A stretch of DNA of 29,046 nucleotides from Deltaproteobacteria bacterium (GTDB lineage: Bacteria > UBA10199 > DSSB01), in NCBI GenBank assembly GCA_020440745.1, contig JAGRNM010000001.1, forward strand, positions 1 through 29,046, written 5' to 3'. The number at the start of each line of letters is the position of its first letter. Position 1 is the first letter of the stretch. This document shows positions 4,450 to 18,208 of the stretch, piece after piece. The translations under genes were made by a program, and so were the position numbers. Below the pieces are notes generated by a model that worked only from the letters and a program-made list of their open reading frames with translations, was not told where the DNA came from and did no database searches.

Positions 4450-4512
4450 GCCTTTTGTAATAAAGAATAGCAGAATAGAGTCTGCTAAAAAAATGTCTTA
4501 TTTTGTCTTATA

Positions 4513-4539
4513 TGTCGAAAAGTGTCTTAATTTTCGACA
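4513..4539. promoter_or_regulatory. Perfect 9-bp inverted repeat TGTCGAAAA-N9-TTTTCGACA immediately upstream of a -35-like hexamer
   Basis: Arms at 4513-4521 and 4531-4539, read from the sequence. No U-run follows, so it looks more like an operator or binding site than a terminator. Confidence 0.3.
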
Positions 4540-4544
4540 GTCCT

Positions 4545-4573
4545 TTGACAGGCTTAGTTTTTAAAGTTTAATA
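4545..4573 (+). promoter_or_regulatory. Sigma-70-like promoter, TTGACA-N17-TTAATA
   Basis: Consensus -35 TTGACA at 4545-4550. A 17-nt spacer separates it from the -10-like TTAATA at 4568-4573. It faces the long noncoding region. Confidence 0.3.
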
Positions 4574-4638
4574 CTTTGTTTTCTATAACTTATTAAAATT
4601 ATTAATTAATTTTTAAATTCGTCAAAAAAAATGACTTT

Positions 4639-4654
4639 TGGCACGCTTGGTGCA
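4639..4654 (+). promoter_or_regulatory. Sigma-54 (RpoN)-type -24/-12 promoter-like element, TGGCACG-N4-GTGCA
   Basis: Sequence ttTGGCACGcttgGTGCAct. The GG and GC dinucleotides have the exact canonical spacing of the TGGCACG-N4-TTGCW consensus. The only mismatch is at the first T of TTGC. The predicted TSS is near 4666, pointing at the heptamer array. Confidence 0.35.
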
Positions 4655-4800
4655 CTGAATAAAAGACAGATCACGGGTAGGATAGAAAAAAAAGGCTCTT
4701 TCAAAACTTAAAACTCAAACAAGGCAATCAGGGCCTTTTCACTAAGGGACCGCAAGAGAAAGTTAAGCAAGCTTAGCTTTTCTCAAAAAAATCCAAGGTC

Positions 4801-4995
4801 AGGTAAGCGCGGGTAAGCAAACGGGTAAGTCACTGGGTAGGAAAACTAGGTAACCGGGTAAGCAAGCGGGTAAGTAAAATGGGTAGGAAAACTAGGTAAC
4901 CGGGTAAGCAAGCGGGTAAGTAAAATGGGTAGGAGAAGTAGGTAAGTTTACTGGGTAAGTCACTAGGTAGCTGGGTAAGCACTCAACTGGGTAAA
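4801..4995. repeat. Array of about 17 GGGTAAG-like heptamers at roughly 11-12 bp spacing, including a 46-bp tandem duplication (4835-4880 and 4881-4926, plus a diverged partial third unit)
   Basis: Heptamers GGGTAAG, GGGTAGG, AGGTAAC and AGGTAAG start at about 4801, 4811, 4823, 4835, 4848, 4856, 4868, 4881, 4894, 4902, 4914, 4927, 4939, 4953, 4965, 4972 and 4989. The unit gggtaggaaaactaggtaaccgggtaagcaagcgggtaagtaaaat is repeated exactly twice in tandem. There is no ORF of 60 aa or more on either strand. Confidence 0.8.
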
Positions 4996-5087
4996 GAAAA
5001 TGCGGGCATTTGGGCAGCCCGCAGAAATGGGCTGCCAAGGATTTTACGATAACTCCTCTTTTATCATATTCCCTTTGGGCACTCCTT

Positions 5088-5118
5088 AAGCGACCTTATT
5101 TACGGTCGCTTTTTTTTT
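5088..5118 (+). terminator. Rho-independent terminator: 8-bp stem AAGCGACC/GGTCGCTT, 8-nt loop, then a 9-T run
   Basis: Read directly: aagcgacc ttatttac ggtcgctt ttttttttt. A weaker GGAGGGC-T7 element follows at about 5172-5187. Confidence 0.55.
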
Positions 5119-5219
5119 AATAAAGCCTAAAAGTATCAGGTTTCCCTCAAAAGCTCTCTGTTCCTCAAGGATGGAGGGCTTTTTTTATTGTCTCGCTTAA
5201 AAAAAATGTCTACAGGAAG

Positions 5220-5234
5220 AGCCCGAGTCGGGCT
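5220..5234. promoter_or_regulatory. Palindrome AGCCCGA-G-TCGGGCT in the promoter region of the epimerase gene
   Basis: Perfect 7-bp arms with a 1-nt centre, about 80 bp upstream of the 5317 start. Candidate dimeric regulator site. Confidence 0.25.
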
Positions 5235-5316
5235 TGTTTAAACATCTTGAGCTTATTTAAGACCATAATTACAGGTCCTTATTTGATTTTTTATTGTTTT
5301 TAATTTTGAGGTGGAC

Positions 5317-6301: not shown

Positions 6302-7849
6302 ATGTCCCAACCCATCGTCAACTTAGAGGCTATTATTCAGGATCCCTATGATTTAGCCGTTGCTACAGCTCGTACTTGTTATTCGGCTAAGGGGATTATC
6401 AGAGTTCCTCAAGTTAGATCCACAGAAACAGCTAGGGTGCTTAGGGATAAGATTAGCCACTCTACTAGACAGGCCGGCCATTTAACTACTAGGCAACATG
6501 CTCACTTTGTTTTTTCTTTGGATAAGGTAAGTCGTAATTTTTTATGGTCCTTTTTACACTCCCATCCTTTTTATAATAGCGAGCAAGTCTCCCAGCGTTA
6601 TGTTAAAGTTCAGGCGGGCAACTACACGGTTCCTCCCTTAAAAGAAAAAGCCAAGACTATCTATGAGGCTTGTATCCATCGCCAGATGGAAACCTATGAG
6701 ACACTCAATCAAGTCCTCTATCCCCACGCTCAAGCTGAGTATTTAAAAGTCTTTCCTATCAGGTCAAAGCATTTAGACACCTATGCTAAAGTGATTCGCA
6801 AAAAATGTTTTGAGGTTTCTCGTTATGTTTTGCCGGTAGCCACCCATGCTTATCTGTATCACACTATTTAGGCTTTAACTTTGATGCGTTATTTTCGTTT
6901 GATGGATTATTTTGACACTCCGTGGGAACAACGTTTGGTAGTGAGTCAAATGGTGGATTTAGTTTGTGAAATAGACCCTGAGTTTAGACAAGAACTGACC
7001 GATCCTTATCCCTTAGAGGCAAGTCCTGAATATGCTTTTTTACAAAGTCAAAGACCTAATTTTTTGGCTAAGAAAGAAAGTCTAAAAGAATTTGATGAAT
7101 CTCTAAAAGGACGCCGAGCTCGTTTGATTGATTATAAGATTAATGCTCCTCAAACCTTAGCTTCAGCCGTGCGTTCGGTTTTGGGTTTAAGTGCTTCAGA
7201 AATAAGTGACGAAGCGGCGATTGCTAAAGTTTTAGACCCTCAGCAAAATTCCCAGCTGGGTGATACTTTAAATTTAAATACTCTTTCTAAGTGGGGGCGC
7301 ACTTTAATGCATCCCCATTATACTTTTAGAAAAAAAATCAGTCATACTGCTGACAGCCAAGACCAACGTCATCGGATGACTCCTGCTTCCCGTCCGGTTT
7401 TAAGCGCCCAATATAGCGGGCAGGCCGATTATATCGTGCCTAAATTAATTGAAGAAGTACCTGAGGCCGAAGAAATTTTTAAGGCTTCGATGAAAGAAAC
7501 TTTTGAGACTATTAATCAACTCTTAGAAATGGGAGTCGAAACTCAATTTGCTCTTTATTTGTTACCCAATGCTTTTCCCATTAGATTTGAAGAATCAGGT
7601 GACCTTTTAAATCTTCACCACAAATGGCATTCCCGCGCTTGCTACACGGCTCAAGAAGAAATCTTTTACGCCACGGTGGATGAGTTAGAAGAAGTCAAAG
7701 CGGTCCATCCCCAACTAGTTGAGCATATCTTGGCTCCTTGTTATTTAAGAAAAAGGGCAGGCATCCGTCCGATTTGTCCAGAAGGCGACCGTTTTTGTGG
7801 CGTCAAAGTTTGGGACAAGTCTTTAGAAGAGTATGAGCGCGTGATTTAG
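6302..7849 (+). CDS. thyX: ThyX-like flavin-dependent thymidylate synthase, long single-chain form, interrupted by an in-frame TAG at 6869-6871 (ORFs 6302-6871 and 6881-7849 are in the same frame)
   Basis: The N-terminal part carries the ThyX block ...HAHFVFSLDKVSRNFLWSFL...SEQVSQRY (SxRY motif). The downstream part carries RHR (QDQRHRMTPASRP) and the C-terminal ThyX block ALYLLPNAFPIRFEESGDLLNLHHKWHSRACYTAQEEI. Both parts are in frame 2, separated only by TAG plus 9 nt. Confidence 0.6.
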
Positions 7850-13232: not shown

Positions 13233-14504
<1,272 letters not shown>

Positions 14505-14623
14505 AAACAACCCTTTCAAAATAGACTTGATATACGATAGACGAAAATTGGCTCCTTTTTTAGTTAGAACAAAGGTTTCGTGTATAAGCTATCGTAGAAT
14601 TTTTTCCTAAGAGGGAAAAATTT

Positions 14624-14708
<85 letters not shown>

Positions 14709-14733
14709 TTTTTTTAGTTTTTGTTTGGTAGAT

Positions 14734-14816: not shown

Positions 14817-15665
14817 TTATTGTTTGACTAAAACCCACACGGTAGAAGTCCCTGGAGAAATAGCCATGCCTGCATTGTAGGCGTCTAAGGCTAAAAACTC
14901 TAAAGTAGTTCCAAAAGGAACAGTAATATAATTTTGTAGTCCTTGATCGGTAACAAAATCTTCATATAAAGAACCGATGACGCGACATTGGCTGGTATAC
15001 GCAAAACTAACGTTAGCAGACAGACCAGCGGTGCAAAGTAGCTTTAAAGTATCATTGACTTGTCTTTCTGCAGACCCAGGTAATTGAAAGGAAGAAACTA
15101 GATTAGAATTAGAAGTATTTTGAATAACCACTAAACCTTCTGATTGGGGAATAATGGGAGCAAGAATATTACTGTTGCTAGTGACGGTTGTTGCAACTGG
15201 CTGTCTTATACGATTAACAGTAATCAAATCAGTTGTATTTGTATTAGTCTGAATCGTATTAGCACTTAGACTATTACTGCTTACATGACCATCTACAGTC
15301 ACATCTCCAGTGGTATTAATAGTATCAGTAGAAAAATTTTCTGTATAAATGGTTCTAGAGGCTACTTCATCTAGGTTAGCAGTACCTGTTACGTTTAAGT
15401 CTTGTTCTATGGTAGCTCCACCATGAATTATAGCATCTCTTTGGACGGTTAACCTTCTGTCTGCATGGACGTTGTAGGCGTTTAAATCTCCATCGGCCAC
15501 CACATTACCTTCGGTTAAGACGTCGTTACCTACCAAAACATTGGCAGGAAAACTTTGGTCTAGATTAATAGTAAAGCTAGCCTGAGCAGAGCTTAAACCG
15601 ACTAAGCAAAATAGGGTGCTTAATAGGAGAGTTTGGAAGAGGAGTTTAGTTTTTTTATGTGTCAT
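14817..15665 (-). CDS. Secreted Thr/Ser/Asn-rich protein, paralog A of a local family; conserved C-terminal Cys-loop domain
   Basis: 282 aa. Signal peptide MTHKKTKLLFQTLLLSTLFCLVGLSSAQA. The central region has short degenerate repeats (LNVTGTANLD, INTTGDVTVDG). The C-terminal region LLCTAG...SQCRV...VPFGTTLEF aligns with the C-terminus of ORF B. Confidence 0.6.
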   Translation of the reverse strand: MTHKKTKLLFQTLLLSTLFCLVGLSSAQASFTINLDQSFPANVLVGNDVLTEGNVVADGDLNAYNVHADRRLTVQRDAIIHGGATIEQDLNVTGTANLDEVASRTIYTENFSTDTINTTGDVTVDGHVSSNSLSANTIQTNTNTTDLITVNRIRQPVATTVTSNSNILAPIIPQSEGLVVIQNTSNSNLVSSFQLPGSAERQVNDTLKLLCTAGLSANVSFAYTSQCRVIGSLYEDFVTDQGLQNYITVPFGTTLEFLALDAYNAGMAISPGTSTVWVLVKQ

Positions 15666-15921
15666 AGCCGTTTCCTTTCTGATTTACTTGAAAGAACAAC
15701 AACAATGACGCATCGCTAGGTTAGGGTATGAGTGTTGAATGGGGGCAGAGGAAAGACCCAAGCTTACTTGATTGTAAGCTCTTTGCAGTAGAATGATTGG
15801 AGTGCCTCTTGTTTCCATTGTTGGTAACCCTGCTCTCCCTCTTTTAAGATTTAATAAAAGTAAAAACTTAAAAAGGGAGCAGTAGCTTTGCGTCCCCGAG
15901 TTACCTCGGGTTTGCCTTTGT
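15663..15921 (-). promoter_or_regulatory. Conserved 5' leader/promoter module, copy A
   Basis: Boxes shared with copies B and C, read in minus-strand sense. The hairpin box is AGACAAAGGCAAACCCGAG-GUAA-CUCGGGGACGCAAAGCUACUG, with plus-strand coordinates 15895-15910 for the stem-loop. The other boxes are AGCAGGGTTACC, TGCGTCATTGTTGTTG and GAAAGGAAACGGCT-ATG. Confidence 0.5.
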
Positions 15922-16073
15922 CTTAATGGATTATTTTTAAGAGAGTGTGTCTCTTGTTTAAGAGATCTTGTAAGGGATTTTAAAAAGCGCTGTCTAGTTT
16001 TTTTTATATTTTGTTTAAAAAAAATTCATTATTTTTTGATGCATTGCATCTATTTCTTGTGACTTATTGCATT

Positions 16074-16114
16074 AAAAAAAACCCGAAAGCTTTTTTAAAC
16101 TTTCGGGTTTTTTC
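16074..16114. terminator. Bidirectional intrinsic terminator downstream of secreted-protein gene B (-)
   Basis: Stem ACCCGAAAG/CTTTCGGGT (16081-16108). An A-run lies on one side and a T-run on the other. Confidence 0.5.
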
Positions 16115-16134
16115 ATTTTTTATTGGTTTTATTT

Positions 16135-16827
16135 TTATCTAATTTGGAACCACTTGCCTAACATTCTTTTAAACTCAGTGGTACGACCAAAGTAGACCAT
16201 GGTGCTACTTACTTGGCTTCCATATTTATTAACGAGTGTGTCAAGGTTGTATCCAAAGCTAGTTGCTGGGGCAACGCTACAGTTTGGATAGTTGGTGTAA
16301 TATTGGACAATAATATCAGGTGCCCAACAGGTGAGGGTGACGATGGTTCCGTCTTCAACATTACTAGGTAAACGGAAAGTAGCTGTGGCTCCTGGGCTGA
16401 CACTCGCTCTCATGATCACGTGTCCTAGTTCGGTGATATTAGCATCACTATAGCTGGTGACGTTTTTATAAGGTTCAACTAGTTCACCTCGTTTTAATTT
16501 ACTTAAGTCAGCGCTTCCCGTGATAGTCGCTTGTTCAGCTACTAAAGAAACGAAGTTAGAGTTAGTTCCTGTGACTTCATTTAGGATACTAAGATTACCG
16601 ACTTCCATATCGGAAGCGATTACTTCCACACCATCTCCCCCTAGGACTAAGGTCTCACTTCCTGTAGTCCCTCCAGAGTCTATTCCTTCACTGTCGCCAG
16701 AAAGAGAAATTTGCTCGGTGGTTTTTCCTGCGTCAATGCTTTCTGCTCGGAGACTAAACGGGATGCTTAAGGCAAGCAGGAAGATTAAGGTTAAGGAACG
16801 ATGGAGTGTTTTATATTTTTGTATCAT
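16135..16827 (-). CDS. Secreted Thr/Ser/Gly-rich protein, paralog B (231 aa from Met MIQKYKTL...)
   Basis: The ORF track extends to 16956. The Met at 16827 sits directly after the conserved GAAAGGAAACGGCT RBS box and begins a signal peptide (MIQKYKTLHRSLTLIFLLALSIPFSLRAES). The C-terminal TLTCWAP...PNCSV...VYFGRTTEF aligns with paralog A. Confidence 0.6.
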   Translation of the reverse strand: MIQKYKTLHRSLTLIFLLALSIPFSLRAESIDAGKTTEQISLSGDSEGIDSGGTTGSETLVLGGDGVEVIASDMEVGNLSILNEVTGTNSNFVSLVAEQATITGSADLSKLKRGELVEPYKNVTSYSDANITELGHVIMRASVSPGATATFRLPSNVEDGTIVTLTCWAPDIIVQYYTNYPNCSVAPATSFGYNLDTLVNKYGSQVSSTMVYFGRTTEFKRMLGKWFQIR

Positions 16828-17010
16828 AGCCGTTTCCTTTCCAATGTGGTTTTGAAAAGACAAACAACAATGACGCATGACTGGGGTTAGAAAAATAATT
16901 TTTCCTTTAGGTAACCCTGCTATCCTAGTCTTTGTTTTTTGATTTCTCTTTAACAAAAACTAGGACCAGTAGCTTTGCGTCCCCGAGTTGCCTCGGGTTT
17001 GCCTTTGTCT
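16825..17010 (-). promoter_or_regulatory. Conserved 5' leader/promoter module, copy B (the shortest copy)
   Basis: It has the same ordered boxes as copies A and C. The hairpin is at 16982-16997. In minus-strand sense its loop is GCAA, where A and C have GUAA. Both are GNRA tetraloops. Confidence 0.5.
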
Positions 17011-17082
17011 AGGTTAATAGATGAACTTACAAAGATCGTCTTATTTCACTTGATTTCATTTTAAGAGATAAATACTTGCAAT

Positions 17083-17115
17083 AAAAAAGCCATCCAAGCT
17101 TTTGCTCGGATGGCT
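17083..17115 (-). terminator. Intrinsic terminator oriented for minus-strand transcripts coming from module C
   Basis: In minus-strand sense: hairpin AGCCATCC-(12 nt)-GGATGGCT followed by TTTTTT. It lies about 410 nt downstream of the small ORF stop. Confidence 0.4.
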
Positions 17116-17524
17116 TCCCTTAGATTCTGCTCTTTTTAGTTATTACTTAGAAGCTTTCATCGAGCATTTTCTGGGTTTGGTTCCAATACTTCTTGGGGTT
17201 GTTAAGAAGTATTGGTTTTTACGATTTCTTTTTTTAAAAAAATGTCATCTAGTCTTTAATTTTTTCACTCATTCTCAGTTGCTAGACTGGACTTTCATTT
17301 TAATTTTCAAAGAAACCGTTTTGTCCTTACGGAGAACCTTTGTATTTTTTTTTCATGAACCAGCCTCTATTTTTTTGAGCCTTGTTTTTCCTCTTAGGGT
17401 CTTAAGCTCTGTTAGCGGTTCTAAGTGGGAGGTTAGAGCTGGATCCTAAGGAGTTAAAGGCTAGGCCCTTTTTGCTGGTCATGATTGTTCTCTTCTAAGA
17501 ACACTTCAAGAGCAGCGCTTGGCC

Positions 17525-17635
17525 ATTAAGCCCAGCGAAGTTCTTGCATATAACCATCTAAGTCATTTTGGTTCTTGAAGAACTCAATGCTGTCGGATTT
17601 TTTAAAGAGGTTTTTGATTGCGTTTAGTTTAGTCA
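17525..17635 (-). CDS. 36-codon ORF (MTKLNAIKNLFKKSDSIEFFKNQNDLDGYMQELRWA) directly behind leader module C
   Basis: Its ATG sits in the same position relative to GAAAGGAAACGGCT as the starts of paralogs A and B. It ends at TAA 17525-17527. It has no signal peptide and is below the ORF-track cutoff. Confidence 0.3.
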
Positions 17636-17877
17636 TAGCCGTTTCCTTTCCAATTGGGTTTTGAAAAAGACAACAACAATGACGCTTAGCTTTTACTTAA
17701 GAAGAGGACTCTCTAAGGGAGAGGGAATTTTTTAGATTCCAAGTCGGAGGTTTTTTAAGACTTCGACTTCCATCTTAGGTAACCCTGCTATCCTAGTCTT
17801 TGTTTTTTGATTTCTCTCTAACAAAAGCTAGGACCAGTAGCTTTGCGTCCCCGAGTTACCTCGGGTTTGCCTTTGTC
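17633..17877 (-). promoter_or_regulatory. Conserved 5' leader/promoter module, copy C (carries an extra insert of about 90 nt relative to B)
   Basis: The boxes are near-identical to those of B: 17781-17877 matches 16909-17008 at almost every base. The hairpin is at 17849-17864 with loop GUAA in minus sense. Confidence 0.5.
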
Positions 17878-18208
17878 TAATGGATTGTCAATTTTAGCTT
17901 TTAACGAAGTTTTAGGTTTTTAAGAACCCTAGCGTTTTTTCGTTATCAACTAAAAAAAATTTTAAGAGTTAAAACTAAGAACTGTCAAATTTTTTTTTAA
18001 ATAAGTTTAATAAAAACGCTAGCATAAAAACGTACAGATCTAACAATTGCCTTATTTGGCGCGGGTTTTAAAAGAATTATTTTTTTAAAAAAATTATTAA
18101 TTTTTTATCTTTTTAAAGTCTGTAAAAGTTTGAAAGTGAAAAAAAGGGCTTGTTGATTTTAAAATTAATGAAGCTTTTTGATTTTTAATTGGCTTTAAAA
18201 GATTGTTC

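What the first reader, a model, noticed from the sequence alone, without database searches (positions are those of the whole stretch)
15663..17877. Three copies of one modular 5' leader ahead of three consecutive minus-strand genes, with a GNRA-capped hairpin showing a loop substitution that preserves GNRA
All three copies are on the minus strand, at 15663-15921, 16825-17010 and 17633-17877. Each shares the same ordered boxes in mRNA sense. Box 1 is AGACAAAGGCAAAC-CCGAG-GNAA-CUCGGG-GACGCAAAGCUACUG. Next comes an A/T-rich spacer. Box 2 is AGCAGGGUUACC. Then a variable insert of 25-125 nt. Box 3 is UGCGUCAUUGUUGUUG. About 20 nt further is GAAAGGAAACGGCU, then AUG. Copies B and C match at nearly every position over about 100 bp. 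The stem is a perfect 6 bp in all copies. The loop is GUAA in A and C and GCAA in B. Both are GNRA tetraloops when read in minus sense. On the plus strand the loops would be the unremarkable UUAC and UUGC. This points to an RNA-level role in the 5' UTR of the minus-strand transcripts, such as a stabiliser, an RNase processing determinant or a protein-binding site. Shared boxes down to the RBS imply co-regulation of the three downstream ORFs: two secreted paralogs and a 36-aa peptide. I did not find this module anywhere else in the window.
Basis: seen in the sequence. Interest (0 to 1): 0.8.

Follow-up and report, generated by a model that had tools for sequence, protein, structure and literature searches.

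The report
Three c-di-GMP riboswitches, one per gene
The repeated "leader" is three copies of a well-known RNA sensor for the bacterial signal c-di-GMP, each placed before its own gene and probably shutting off translation when the signal is high; this is an ordinary class found in a poorly sampled bacterium.

Summary
Three minus-strand leaders share the stated boxes. Boxes 1 and 2, together with the "A/T-rich spacer" between them, form a complete c-di-GMP-I (GEMM-I) riboswitch aptamer. Rfam scores are 63-69 bits (gathering score 59, E 1e-13 to 1e-14) at 15925-15819, 17012-16906 and 17880-17774.

- **Hairpin:** the GNRA-capped hairpin is helix P1a.
- **Spacer:** it is helix P1b, with four two-sided compensatory changes between copy A and copies B/C.
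- **Ligand letters:** the ligand-contact letters (Vc2 G20/A47/C92) are canonical. Rfam's top label, "GGC variant", is model cross-talk.
- **Platform:** box 3 plus the RBS block is the expression platform. Box 3 pairs with the SD and AUG in a hairpin of about -19 kcal/mol. Alternatively it pairs with the aptamer's two core strands.

The most likely logic is therefore that c-di-GMP binding frees box 3 and translation is switched off, as proposed for Vibrio Vc2/tfoY. That direction is inferred in silico only.

The regulated products are two unrelated ORFan secreted proteins, not paralogs, and a 36-aa ORF followed by an unusually structured 450-nt tail. Verdict: a new member of a known kind, of low to moderate interest.

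The parts
15815..15929 (-). Riboswitch A aptamer (c-di-GMP-I). P1 is CCAUU 15929-15925 with AAUGG 15819-15815. P1a is 15910-15895, with loop GUAA at 15904-15901. P1b is about 15887-15826. The G20 equivalent is 15916, the A47 equivalent 15889 and the C92 equivalent 15824.
   Evidence: Rfam RF03167/CL00126, 63.4 bits, E 5.9e-13 at 15925-15819. The P1 duplex is -6.3 kcal/mol.
15657..15713 (-). Expression platform A. It comprises box 3 (UGCGUC 15712-15707), the anti-SD strand (to 15690), the SD GAAAGGAAAC (15679-15670) and the AUG (15665-15663), folded as a sequestor hairpin.
   Evidence: The hairpin alone is -19.1 kcal/mol. P(unpaired) for the SD is 0.04-0.05.
14817..15665 (-). Gene A (KDK66_00075). 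It encodes 282 aa with a signal peptide and a beta-strand repeat region. It is an ORFan.
   Evidence: self-hit only. and one search give weak repeat hits to YadA-like and RTX-like proteins. One search gives no Pfam hit above the cut-off.
16904..17013 (-). Riboswitch B aptamer. P1a is 16997-16982, with loop GCAA at 16991-16988. GACGCA is 16981-16976. AGCAGGGUUACC is 16921-16910.
   Evidence: Rfam 68.8 bits, E 1.6e-14 at 17012-16906.
16820..16877 (-). Expression platform B. UGCGUC is 16877-16872, the SD is 16841-16832 and the AUG is 16827-16825.
   Evidence: The hairpin alone is -18.4 kcal/mol.
16135..16827 (-). Gene B (KDK66_00080). It encodes 230 aa with a signal peptide and is an ORFan. An intrinsic terminator follows at about 16108-16074.
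   Evidence: self-hit only; no family. The terminator is read from the sequence.
17770..17883 (-). Riboswitch C aptamer. P1 is CCAUU 17883-17879 with GAUGG 17774-17770. P1a is 17865-17850, with loop GUAA at 17859-17856. GACGCA is 17849-17844. AGCAGGGUUACC is 17789-17778.
   Evidence: Rfam 67.5 bits, E 3.8e-14 at 17880-17774. The P1 duplex is -11.2 kcal/mol.
17632..17686 (-). Expression platform C. AGCGUC is 17686-17681, the SD is 17650-17641 and the AUG is 17636-17634.
   Evidence: The hairpin alone is -19.6 kcal/mol.
17526..17636 (-). A 36-aa ORF behind riboswitch C. It has the same SD/AUG module as genes A and B and is not called as a gene in the public record.
17083..17525 (-). A non-coding, highly structured tail of the riboswitch C transcript. 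It ends in an intrinsic terminator (stem and U-run at about 17119-17083).
   Evidence: MFE -128.1 against shuffles of -85.7 +/- 5.4, z = -7.8. The contig baseline is z = -0.8 +/- 1.7. No Rfam hit was found.
17959..17988 (-). A promoter-like site, TTGACA-18-TAAAAT, about 70 nt upstream of aptamer C. It matches the consensus only.
   Evidence: 11 of 12 positions. The number of such sites in the region does not exceed the shuffle expectation.

Best explanation
Each of the three leaders is a complete class I cyclic-di-GMP riboswitch (GEMM-I). Each sits in the 5' UTR of its own transcription unit.

The aptamer has three parts. P1 closes it. The canonical ligand-contact letters lie at the three-way junction.

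The expression platform is translational. Box 3 and the U/C-rich strand after it can pair in two ways. One way is with the SD and start codon, which gives a sequestor and switches the gene off. The other is with the aptamer's two junction strands, AAAGGCAA and GACGCA, around P1a; this destroys the aptamer and leaves the SD free.

If c-di-GMP binds while the variable insert is being transcribed, it locks the junction strands. Box 3 is then left for the SD/AUG, and translation is repressed at high c-di-GMP.

What is shown: the aptamer identity and the two alternative pairings, in silico. What is inferred: ligand binding, the direction of the switch, and the position of the transcription start upstream of the aptamer.

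My confidence by step: aptamer identity about 0.95; translational sequestor about 0.7; OFF direction about 0.55.
For: - Rfam hits lie above the gathering score for all three copies.
- 98.7% of cells are paired in the aptamer helices, against 31-56% in slid registers. P1b holds four two-sided compensatory pairs.
- G, A and C stand at the positions that PMC4744006 names as the c-di-GMP contacts G20/A47/C92.
- GNRA is kept in 121 of 121 sampled relatives. A CC receptor step is present, as in 8 of 8 GNAA relatives.
- Conservation is mosaic. The cores are 98-100% identical and box 3 to AUG is 80-91%. The inserts, flanks and CDS starts are at background, 26-59%.
- A sequestor hairpin of -18 to -20 kcal/mol is predicted in all copies, with the SD 95-98% paired.
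- The central aptamer strand against the segment ending in GCGUCAU gives -14 to -15.8 kcal/mol, against -6.7 +/- 2.3 for shuffles (fraction 0.004-0.006). The extension partner differs in each copy.
- In nascent transcripts cut before the SD, box 3 and the anti-SD pair with both aptamer core strands in all three copies. That fold is 10-13 kcal/mol more stable than the aptamer fold. This is comparable to the binding energy of a KD of about 1 nM (the KD is cited in PMC3627812).
- The same logic is proposed for Vc2/tfoY (10.1101/617340).
Against: - There is no experimental binding or expression data, and no orthologous leaders. Scans of genome and metagenome collections for the platform found nothing.
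- The sequestor has no two-sided covariation.
- In full-length equilibrium folds the SD stays paired with or without the aptamer. Only the AUG changes: P(unpaired) is 0.18-0.31 against 0.07. The fully open state lies 5-7 kcal/mol above the MFE. The OFF/ON contrast therefore depends on co-transcriptional kinetics.
- A downstream GCGUC is not enriched in other c-di-GMP-I riboswitches, 18 of 87 against 17 of 87 upstream.
- The aptamer 5' strand against box 3 is not better than shuffles in copy A (fraction 0.36).
- The transcription starts are unknown. P1 of copy B is weak, at -2.9 kcal/mol.
Confidence: 0.62

Rival explanations
1. The aptamers are genuine c-di-GMP sensors, but the output differs from a translational OFF switch. 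It could be an ON switch. It could also act on mRNA stability or on Rho-dependent termination, as when bound Vc2 protects upstream RNA from decay.
For: - The SD is predicted to be paired in both equilibrium states.
- Class I examples of both signs are known: Vc1 is ON and Vc2 is OFF, and Vc2 also controls RNA stability.
- The unit behind copy C is mostly non-coding RNA.
Against: - The strand that blocks the SD/AUG is complementary to exactly those aptamer strands that the ligand would lock. That arrangement gives OFF, not ON.
- No intrinsic terminator lies between the aptamer and the AUG in A or B.
Confidence: 0.2
2. At least copy C is not a gene regulator. Instead it is part of a long non-coding RNA that sequesters or buffers c-di-GMP, like Bdellovibrio merRNA.
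For: - Only a 36-aa ORF follows, and it is not annotated.
- Behind it comes a 450-nt tail that is the most structured stretch of the contig.
- merRNA is a 445-nt RNA that carries a riboswitch and has no conserved ORF (PMC3627812).
Against: - Copy C keeps the complete SD/AUG sequestor module, identical to those of the two protein-coding units. That argues that the short ORF is translated and regulated.
- No expression data exist.
Confidence: 0.1
3. The aptamers sense a different ligand, as a variant class. Candidates are the c-di-GMP-I-GGC variant that Rfam scores best, or a cGAMP-type GEMM-Ib.
For: RF03167 is the top-scoring model for all three copies.
Against: - All three copies have A where the RF03167 consensus has its conserved G (GACGC-G-AA against GACGC-A-AA).
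- All three have G at the G20 position, where cGAMP sensors differ (one search states that this position changes).
- Of 20 metagenomic aptamers selected to carry that A, 12 are also labelled RF03167. The label is therefore not diagnostic.
Confidence: 0.05
4. The element is a generic 5' stabiliser hairpin, an RNase processing determinant or a protein-binding site, or it is merely the relic of a local duplication with no function.
For: - The module is found only at these three sites in the available data.
- The aptamers of B and C are 96-98% identical, loop positions included.
Against: - The full-length match to a riboswitch covariance model covers much more than the hairpin.
- Helix P1b shows compensatory changes.
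- Sequence between and around the conserved blocks has diverged to background.
Confidence: 0.03

Closest known systems
c-di-GMP-I (GEMM-I) riboswitch, Rfam RF01051. The best-studied example is Vibrio cholerae Vc2, upstream of tfoY.
   Same: - The architecture is the same three-helix P1/P1a/P1b arrangement.
- The contact letters are the same (G20/A47/C92), and so are the C...G interhelix letters.
- A GNRA loop caps the first hairpin.
- The element sits in a 5' UTR.
- The proposed control is translational OFF. An anti-RBS element lies downstream of the aptamer, and an aptamer strand captures it at low c-di-GMP.
   Different: - The loop is GYAA, with a helical CC:GG-type receptor step rather than GAAA with the 11-nt receptor. 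This reading rests on my own knowledge of GNRA receptor rules, supported.
- P1b is long (about 60 nt) and A/U-rich.
- Here the switching strand is complementary to both junction strands around P1a, not to the P1 strand.
- The regulated genes are ORFans.
c-di-GMP-I-GGC variant (Rfam RF03167)
   Same: It is the highest-scoring covariance model for all three copies, and the fold is the same.
   Different: The window copies carry A, not the conserved G, directly 3' of GACGC. They also have UUACC, not UGCC, at the 3' junction. Other A-type aptamers cross-hit this model as well.
Bdellovibrio bacteriovorus merRNA (PMC3627812)
   Same: A c-di-GMP-I aptamer heads a long, structured RNA that has no convincing protein gene. 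This resembles the copy C unit.
   Different: Copy C keeps an SD/AUG module and a 36-aa ORF. Its expression level is unknown, and no sequence similarity to merRNA was established.
Tandem c-di-GMP-I riboswitches (for example Bc3-5 of Bacillus thuringiensis, PMC4759541; survey in PMC9481103)
   Same: Several class I aptamers lie close together on one strand.
   Different: Here each aptamer has its own expression platform, its own ORF and a terminator before the next unit. These are three separate switches, not a tandem stack in one UTR.

Membership tests
c-di-GMP-I riboswitch (GEMM-I; RF01051 / clan CL00126) | The covariance-model score is at or above the curated gathering score. | tested here: met
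   Scores are 63.4, 67.5 and 68.8 bits against a gathering score of 59 for the best clan member. Four lower-scoring overlapping same-clan matches that also passed their own cut-offs were suppressed by the tool, so the RF01051 score itself was not seen.
c-di-GMP-I riboswitch (GEMM-I; RF01051 / clan CL00126) | Two adjacent hairpins (P1a/P2 and P1b/P3) are closed by a P1 helix. | tested here: met
   25 pairs are 98.7% paired, with four compensatory pairs in P1b. The P1 duplex is -6.3 (A), -2.9 (B, weak) and -11.2 (C) kcal/mol.
c-di-GMP-I riboswitch (GEMM-I; RF01051 / clan CL00126) | The ligand-contact nucleotides are equivalent to Vc2 G20, A47 and C92. | tested here: met
   AAAG-G-GC, GACGC-A-AA and UUA-C-C are invariant in the three copies. 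The contacts are named in PMC4744006. Mapping them onto the window relies on the model alignment and on my recollection of Vc2 numbering.
c-di-GMP-I riboswitch (GEMM-I; RF01051 / clan CL00126) | An interhelical Watson-Crick pair is present (Vc2 C44-G83). | tested here: inconclusive
   The C of GAC and the G of the bulged AG in GAUAGC/GAGAGC are present and invariant. The tertiary pair itself cannot be tested from sequence.
c-di-GMP-I riboswitch (GEMM-I; RF01051 / clan CL00126) | A GNRA tetraloop on the first hairpin docks on a receptor in the second. | tested here: met
   The loops are GUAA, GCAA and GUAA. GNRA is kept in 121 of 121 sampled relatives. A CC step is present at the matching height of P1b, as in 8 of 8 GNAA relatives. 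Docking itself was not tested.
c-di-GMP-I riboswitch (GEMM-I; RF01051 / clan CL00126) | The RNA binds c-di-GMP selectively. | not testable with these tools
   This needs in-line probing, ITC or equilibrium dialysis.
c-di-GMP-I-GGC variant (RF03167) | G stands at the position equivalent to Vc2 A47 (model consensus GACGC-G-AA). | tested here: not met
   All three copies have A there, a mismatch in the cmscan alignments. Twelve of 20 aptamers fixed to A at this position still get this label. The meaning of 'GGC' is from my own knowledge, because the defining paper is not in the library.
c-AMP-GMP (GEMM-Ib) riboswitch | A replaces G at the position equivalent to Vc2 G20. | tested here: not met
   G is present in all three copies. 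PMC9481103 states that a key pocket nucleotide differs in the cGAMP variants.
Translational riboswitch expression platform (SD sequestor) | The SD/start codon can be sequestered by a strand that alternatively pairs with the aptamer. | tested here: met
   The test was in silico only. Sequestor hairpins are -18 to -20 kcal/mol with 20 conserved pairs. The alternative pairing with the aptamer strands has a probability of about 1 in nascent transcripts. The duplex is stronger than shuffles, at fraction 0.004-0.006.
Translational riboswitch expression platform (SD sequestor) | Translation changes with the ligand in vivo or in vitro. | not testable with these tools
   This needs reporter fusions or toeprinting with and without c-di-GMP.

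The most novel reading that the evidence does not exclude
Riboswitch C does not mainly control a protein. It gates a roughly 0.45-kb, highly structured non-coding RNA, directly or through translation of a 36-aa leader-like ORF. That would make it a c-di-GMP-controlled regulatory or sponge RNA in an unsampled lineage. All three switches would share an unusual platform in which one strand invades both junction strands of the aptamer around P1a.
Probability: 0.2. Interest if true: 0.5.

Novelty: new member of a known kind. Interest (0 to 1): 0.25.

Why it matters
- It turns an anonymous repeated leader into a specific, testable annotation. In this uncultured bacterium, three adjacent units are predicted to be repressed by c-di-GMP: two ORFan secreted proteins and a short ORF with a structured RNA. 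This gives a first functional handle on genes that have no homologues.
- It exposes an annotation pitfall. Rfam's best-score rule labels canonical aptamers as the 'GGC variant'.
- It does not reveal a new kind of RNA or mechanism.

Tried and rejected
- **Searching for the platform elsewhere.** Scans for box 3...SD in species-representative genomes and in metagenomes gave 0 hits.
- **Looking for close relatives through SerRS.** The best identity was 59%, across mixed phyla, so no orthologous leaders are available.
- **Exact look-ups of protein A and SerRS.** Neither is on record in the contig index.
- **Homologues of proteins A and B.** Each matches only itself among 5.8 billion clusters. The exhaustive HMMER search of A gave only repeat-level hits to YadA-like and RTX-like proteins. 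Pfam and NCBIfam gave nothing above the cut-offs.
- **AlphaFold model of protein A.** pLDDT was 41, which is unusable, so I ran no fold search and did not model B.
- **Paralogy of A and B.** Rejected (E = 2.1). There is no decayed paralogue behind copy C.
- **A leader peptide through box 3.** Rejected. The AUG in box 3 exists in A and B but is AAG in C, and the frames end differently.
- **GACGC:GCGUC competition as a general class feature.** Rejected.
- **Plus-strand 'terminators' at the P1a hairpins.** These are artefacts of reading the reverse complement.
- **First constrained fold.** It had an off-by-one error in P1a and gave inflated ΔΔG values. I corrected it.
- **The paper defining c-di-GMP-I-GGC.** It could not be retrieved.


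Full report
**Observation.**
- AGACAAAGGCAAAC-CCGAG-GNAA-CUCGG-GGACGCAAAGCUACUG is identical in the three copies apart from the second loop base (GUAA, GCAA, GUAA).
- AGCAGGGUUACC is identical in all three.
- Box 3 matches at 15-16 of 16 positions.
- GAAAGGAAACGGCUAUG is identical in all three.
- The inserts are 110, 32 and 91 nt long.
- No other copy is present in the window.

**Identity.** A scan of the whole window against Rfam gives three hits above the gathering score, all on the minus strand: 15925-15819 (63.4 bits), 17012-16906 (68.8) and 17880-17774 (67.5). All belong to the c-di-GMP-I clan, with E-values of 6e-13 to 2e-14.
- Boxes 1 and 2 and everything between them therefore form one riboswitch aptamer.
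- The 'A/T-rich spacer' is the long helix P1b.
- On a gap-free alignment, 25 aptamer pairs are 98.7% paired, against 31-56% when the partners are slid.
- P1b carries four pairs that changed on both sides between copy A and copies B/C. P1a is invariant.
- A P1 helix longer than Rfam draws is available from the conserved CCAUU just upstream and the AAUGG/GAUGG just downstream. It is -6.3 kcal/mol in A, -11.2 in C and weak in B at -2.9.

**Which member of the clan.**
- Rfam's best-scoring model is the 'GGC' variant (RF03167). However, the model's conserved G directly after GACGC is an A in all three copies.
- The letters at the positions that PMC4744006 lists as the c-di-GMP contacts of Vc2 (G20, A47, C92) are the canonical G, A and C.
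- To see what the label means, I scanned 20 metagenomic aptamers that my search pattern had fixed to A at that position. Twelve were also labelled RF03167 and eight RF01051.
- The label is therefore cross-talk between related models. By binding-site letters these are ordinary c-di-GMP-I aptamers.
- The G at the G20 position also argues against the cGAMP-sensing subtype.

**The GNRA point.**
- In 121 aptamers recovered from metagenomes with a pattern that left the two middle loop bases free, the loop is GNRA in all 121. P1a is fully paired in 116.
- For GNAA loops other than GAAA, 8 of 8 have a CC step within 7 nt after GCUAC in P1b, as the window copies do. GNGA loops mostly have CU there, in 12 of 15.
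- This fits the established rule that GNAA loops dock on CC:GG and that the second loop base is not read. The rule is from my own knowledge.
- The U-to-C change is thus neutral within a known family constraint. It is not new evidence of function.

**Is it only a duplication?** Segment by segment:

| Segment | Identity between copies |
|---|---|
| Aptamer cores | 98-100% |
| Box 3 to AUG | 80-91% |
| Upper P1b, A vs B/C | 52-54% |
| Upper P1b, B vs C | 96% |
| Inserts | 26-49% |
| 60 nt upstream | 48-59% |
| First 60 nt of coding sequence | 54-59% |

A versus B/C is therefore old and selectively conserved. The B and C aptamers are recent copies or have been homogenised.

**Expression platform.**
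- In all three copies box 3 and the following U/C-rich strand pair with GAAAGGAAACGGCUAUGAC. The hairpin is -18.4 to -19.6 kcal/mol and covers both the SD and the AUG. The SD is 95-98% paired in the ensemble.
- The consensus fold has 20 pairs with four one-sided changes that keep pairing. It has no two-sided covariation, because the 3' strand is the invariant SD/AUG.
- The same strand is also complementary to the aptamer. UGCGUC pairs with GACGCA, which includes the A47 equivalent. The anti-SD pairs with AGACAAAGGCAA, which includes the G20 equivalent. Together they form a junction around P1a.
- The central-strand duplex is -14 to -15.8 kcal/mol, against -6.7 +/- 2.3 for shuffles (fraction 0.004-0.006). 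It is extended by a different complementary tetramer in each copy.
- In transcripts cut just before the SD, this anti-aptamer fold is the MFE in all three copies, with the pairs at probability of about 1. It is 10.2-12.7 kcal/mol more stable than the aptamer fold. That is about what a KD of roughly 1 nM can pay (KD cited in PMC3627812).
- In full-length RNA the aptamer state lies only 2.3-4.8 kcal/mol above the MFE, and there the sequestor is complete.

**Mechanism.** The most likely logic follows from these pairings.
- The ligand binds while the insert is being transcribed and locks the junction strands.
- Box 3 is then free to close on the SD/AUG, and translation is off.
- Without ligand, box 3 invades the aptamer and the SD emerges unpaired.
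- This is the scheme proposed for Vc2/tfoY, an OFF switch with an anti-RBS element downstream of the aptamer (10.1101/617340).

**Caveats on the mechanism.**
- At equilibrium the SD is predicted to be paired in both states, and only the AUG opens: 0.18-0.31 against 0.07.
- The fully open state is 5-7 kcal/mol above the MFE.
- A downstream GCGUC is not enriched in other class I riboswitches.
- No orthologous leaders could be found.
- The direction of control is therefore an inference, at about 0.55.

**What is regulated.**
- The window is a complete contig of a MAG labelled 'Deltaproteobacteria bacterium'. Proteins A (KDK66_00075) and B (KDK66_00080) have signal peptides, and neither has any homologue other than itself.
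- A and B are not detectable paralogs.
- Protein A's repeat region weakly resembles the beta-repeat parts of YadA-like and RTX-like surface proteins.
- Each unit has its own terminator, so these are three separate switches, not a tandem stack.
- The rest of the contig is housekeeping and carries no c-di-GMP enzymes.
- Behind copy C lies only a 36-aa ORF, absent from the public protein record.
- A 450-nt tail follows that ORF. It folds with z = -7.8 against a contig baseline of -0.8 +/- 1.7 and has no Rfam match.
- This recalls the riboswitch-bearing merRNA of Bdellovibrio. I could not test it further.

**Verdict.** The finding is real and functional, but it is a rediscovery of a well-known riboswitch class. 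It is a new member of a known kind. Its modest extra interest comes from the ORFan regulon and the structured RNA behind copy C.

Noticed in passing
window 17083-17525 (minus strand): A non-coding tail lies between the 36-aa ORF and an intrinsic terminator. It is the most structured 450 nt of the contig (MFE -128 against shuffles of -86 +/- 5, z about -7 to -8; baseline -0.8 +/- 1.7). It matches no Rfam family. It may be a riboswitch-controlled ncRNA.
   Followed up: partly
L014-L133 (metagenome loci) and window 15819-15925, 16906-17012, 17774-17880: Rfam's best-score rule assigns many aptamers with the canonical A at the Vc2-A47 position to the 'c-di-GMP-I-GGC' variant family (12 of 20 tested). 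Automatic annotation with RF03167 therefore over-calls the variant.
   Followed up: yes
window 14817-15665 and 16135-16827 (minus strand): Both riboswitch-controlled secreted proteins are ORFans. Each matches only its own record among 5.8 billion protein clusters. Protein A has a beta-strand repeat region that resembles adhesin-type repeats only faintly.
   Followed up: partly
window 6302-6871 and 6881-7849 (plus strand): Two adjacent ORFs both match the ThyX (Thy1) family. The first covers only part of the profile. This may be a tandem duplication or a split gene.
   Followed up: no
window 15895-15910, 16982-16997, 17850-17865 (plus strand): The consensus scanner reports three 'terminator-like' sites on the plus strand. 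They are simply the reverse complements of the P1a hairpins followed by TTTGCCTTTG. They are artefacts.
   Followed up: yes
window 15817-15812, 16907-16902, 17773-17768 (minus strand): Directly after each aptamer there is an (A/U)GGAA motif (AUGGAA, AAGGAA, AUGGAA), in addition to the AAGGAA of the SD. P1 pairing explains most of it. I did not examine whether it could serve as a second GGA site for a CsrA-type protein.
   Followed up: no
window 4450-5310: This is a gap of about 860 nt with no ORF of 110 aa or more. The 450-nt tile starting at 4951 folds somewhat better than shuffles (z = -3.4). I did not inspect it.
   Followed up: no
window 13233-14709: serS is followed directly by tRNA-Ser(UGA) on the same strand, and the pair is convergent with riboswitch-controlled gene A. 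The closest SerRS among the species-representative genomes is only 59% identical, so the lineage is poorly sampled.
   Followed up: partly
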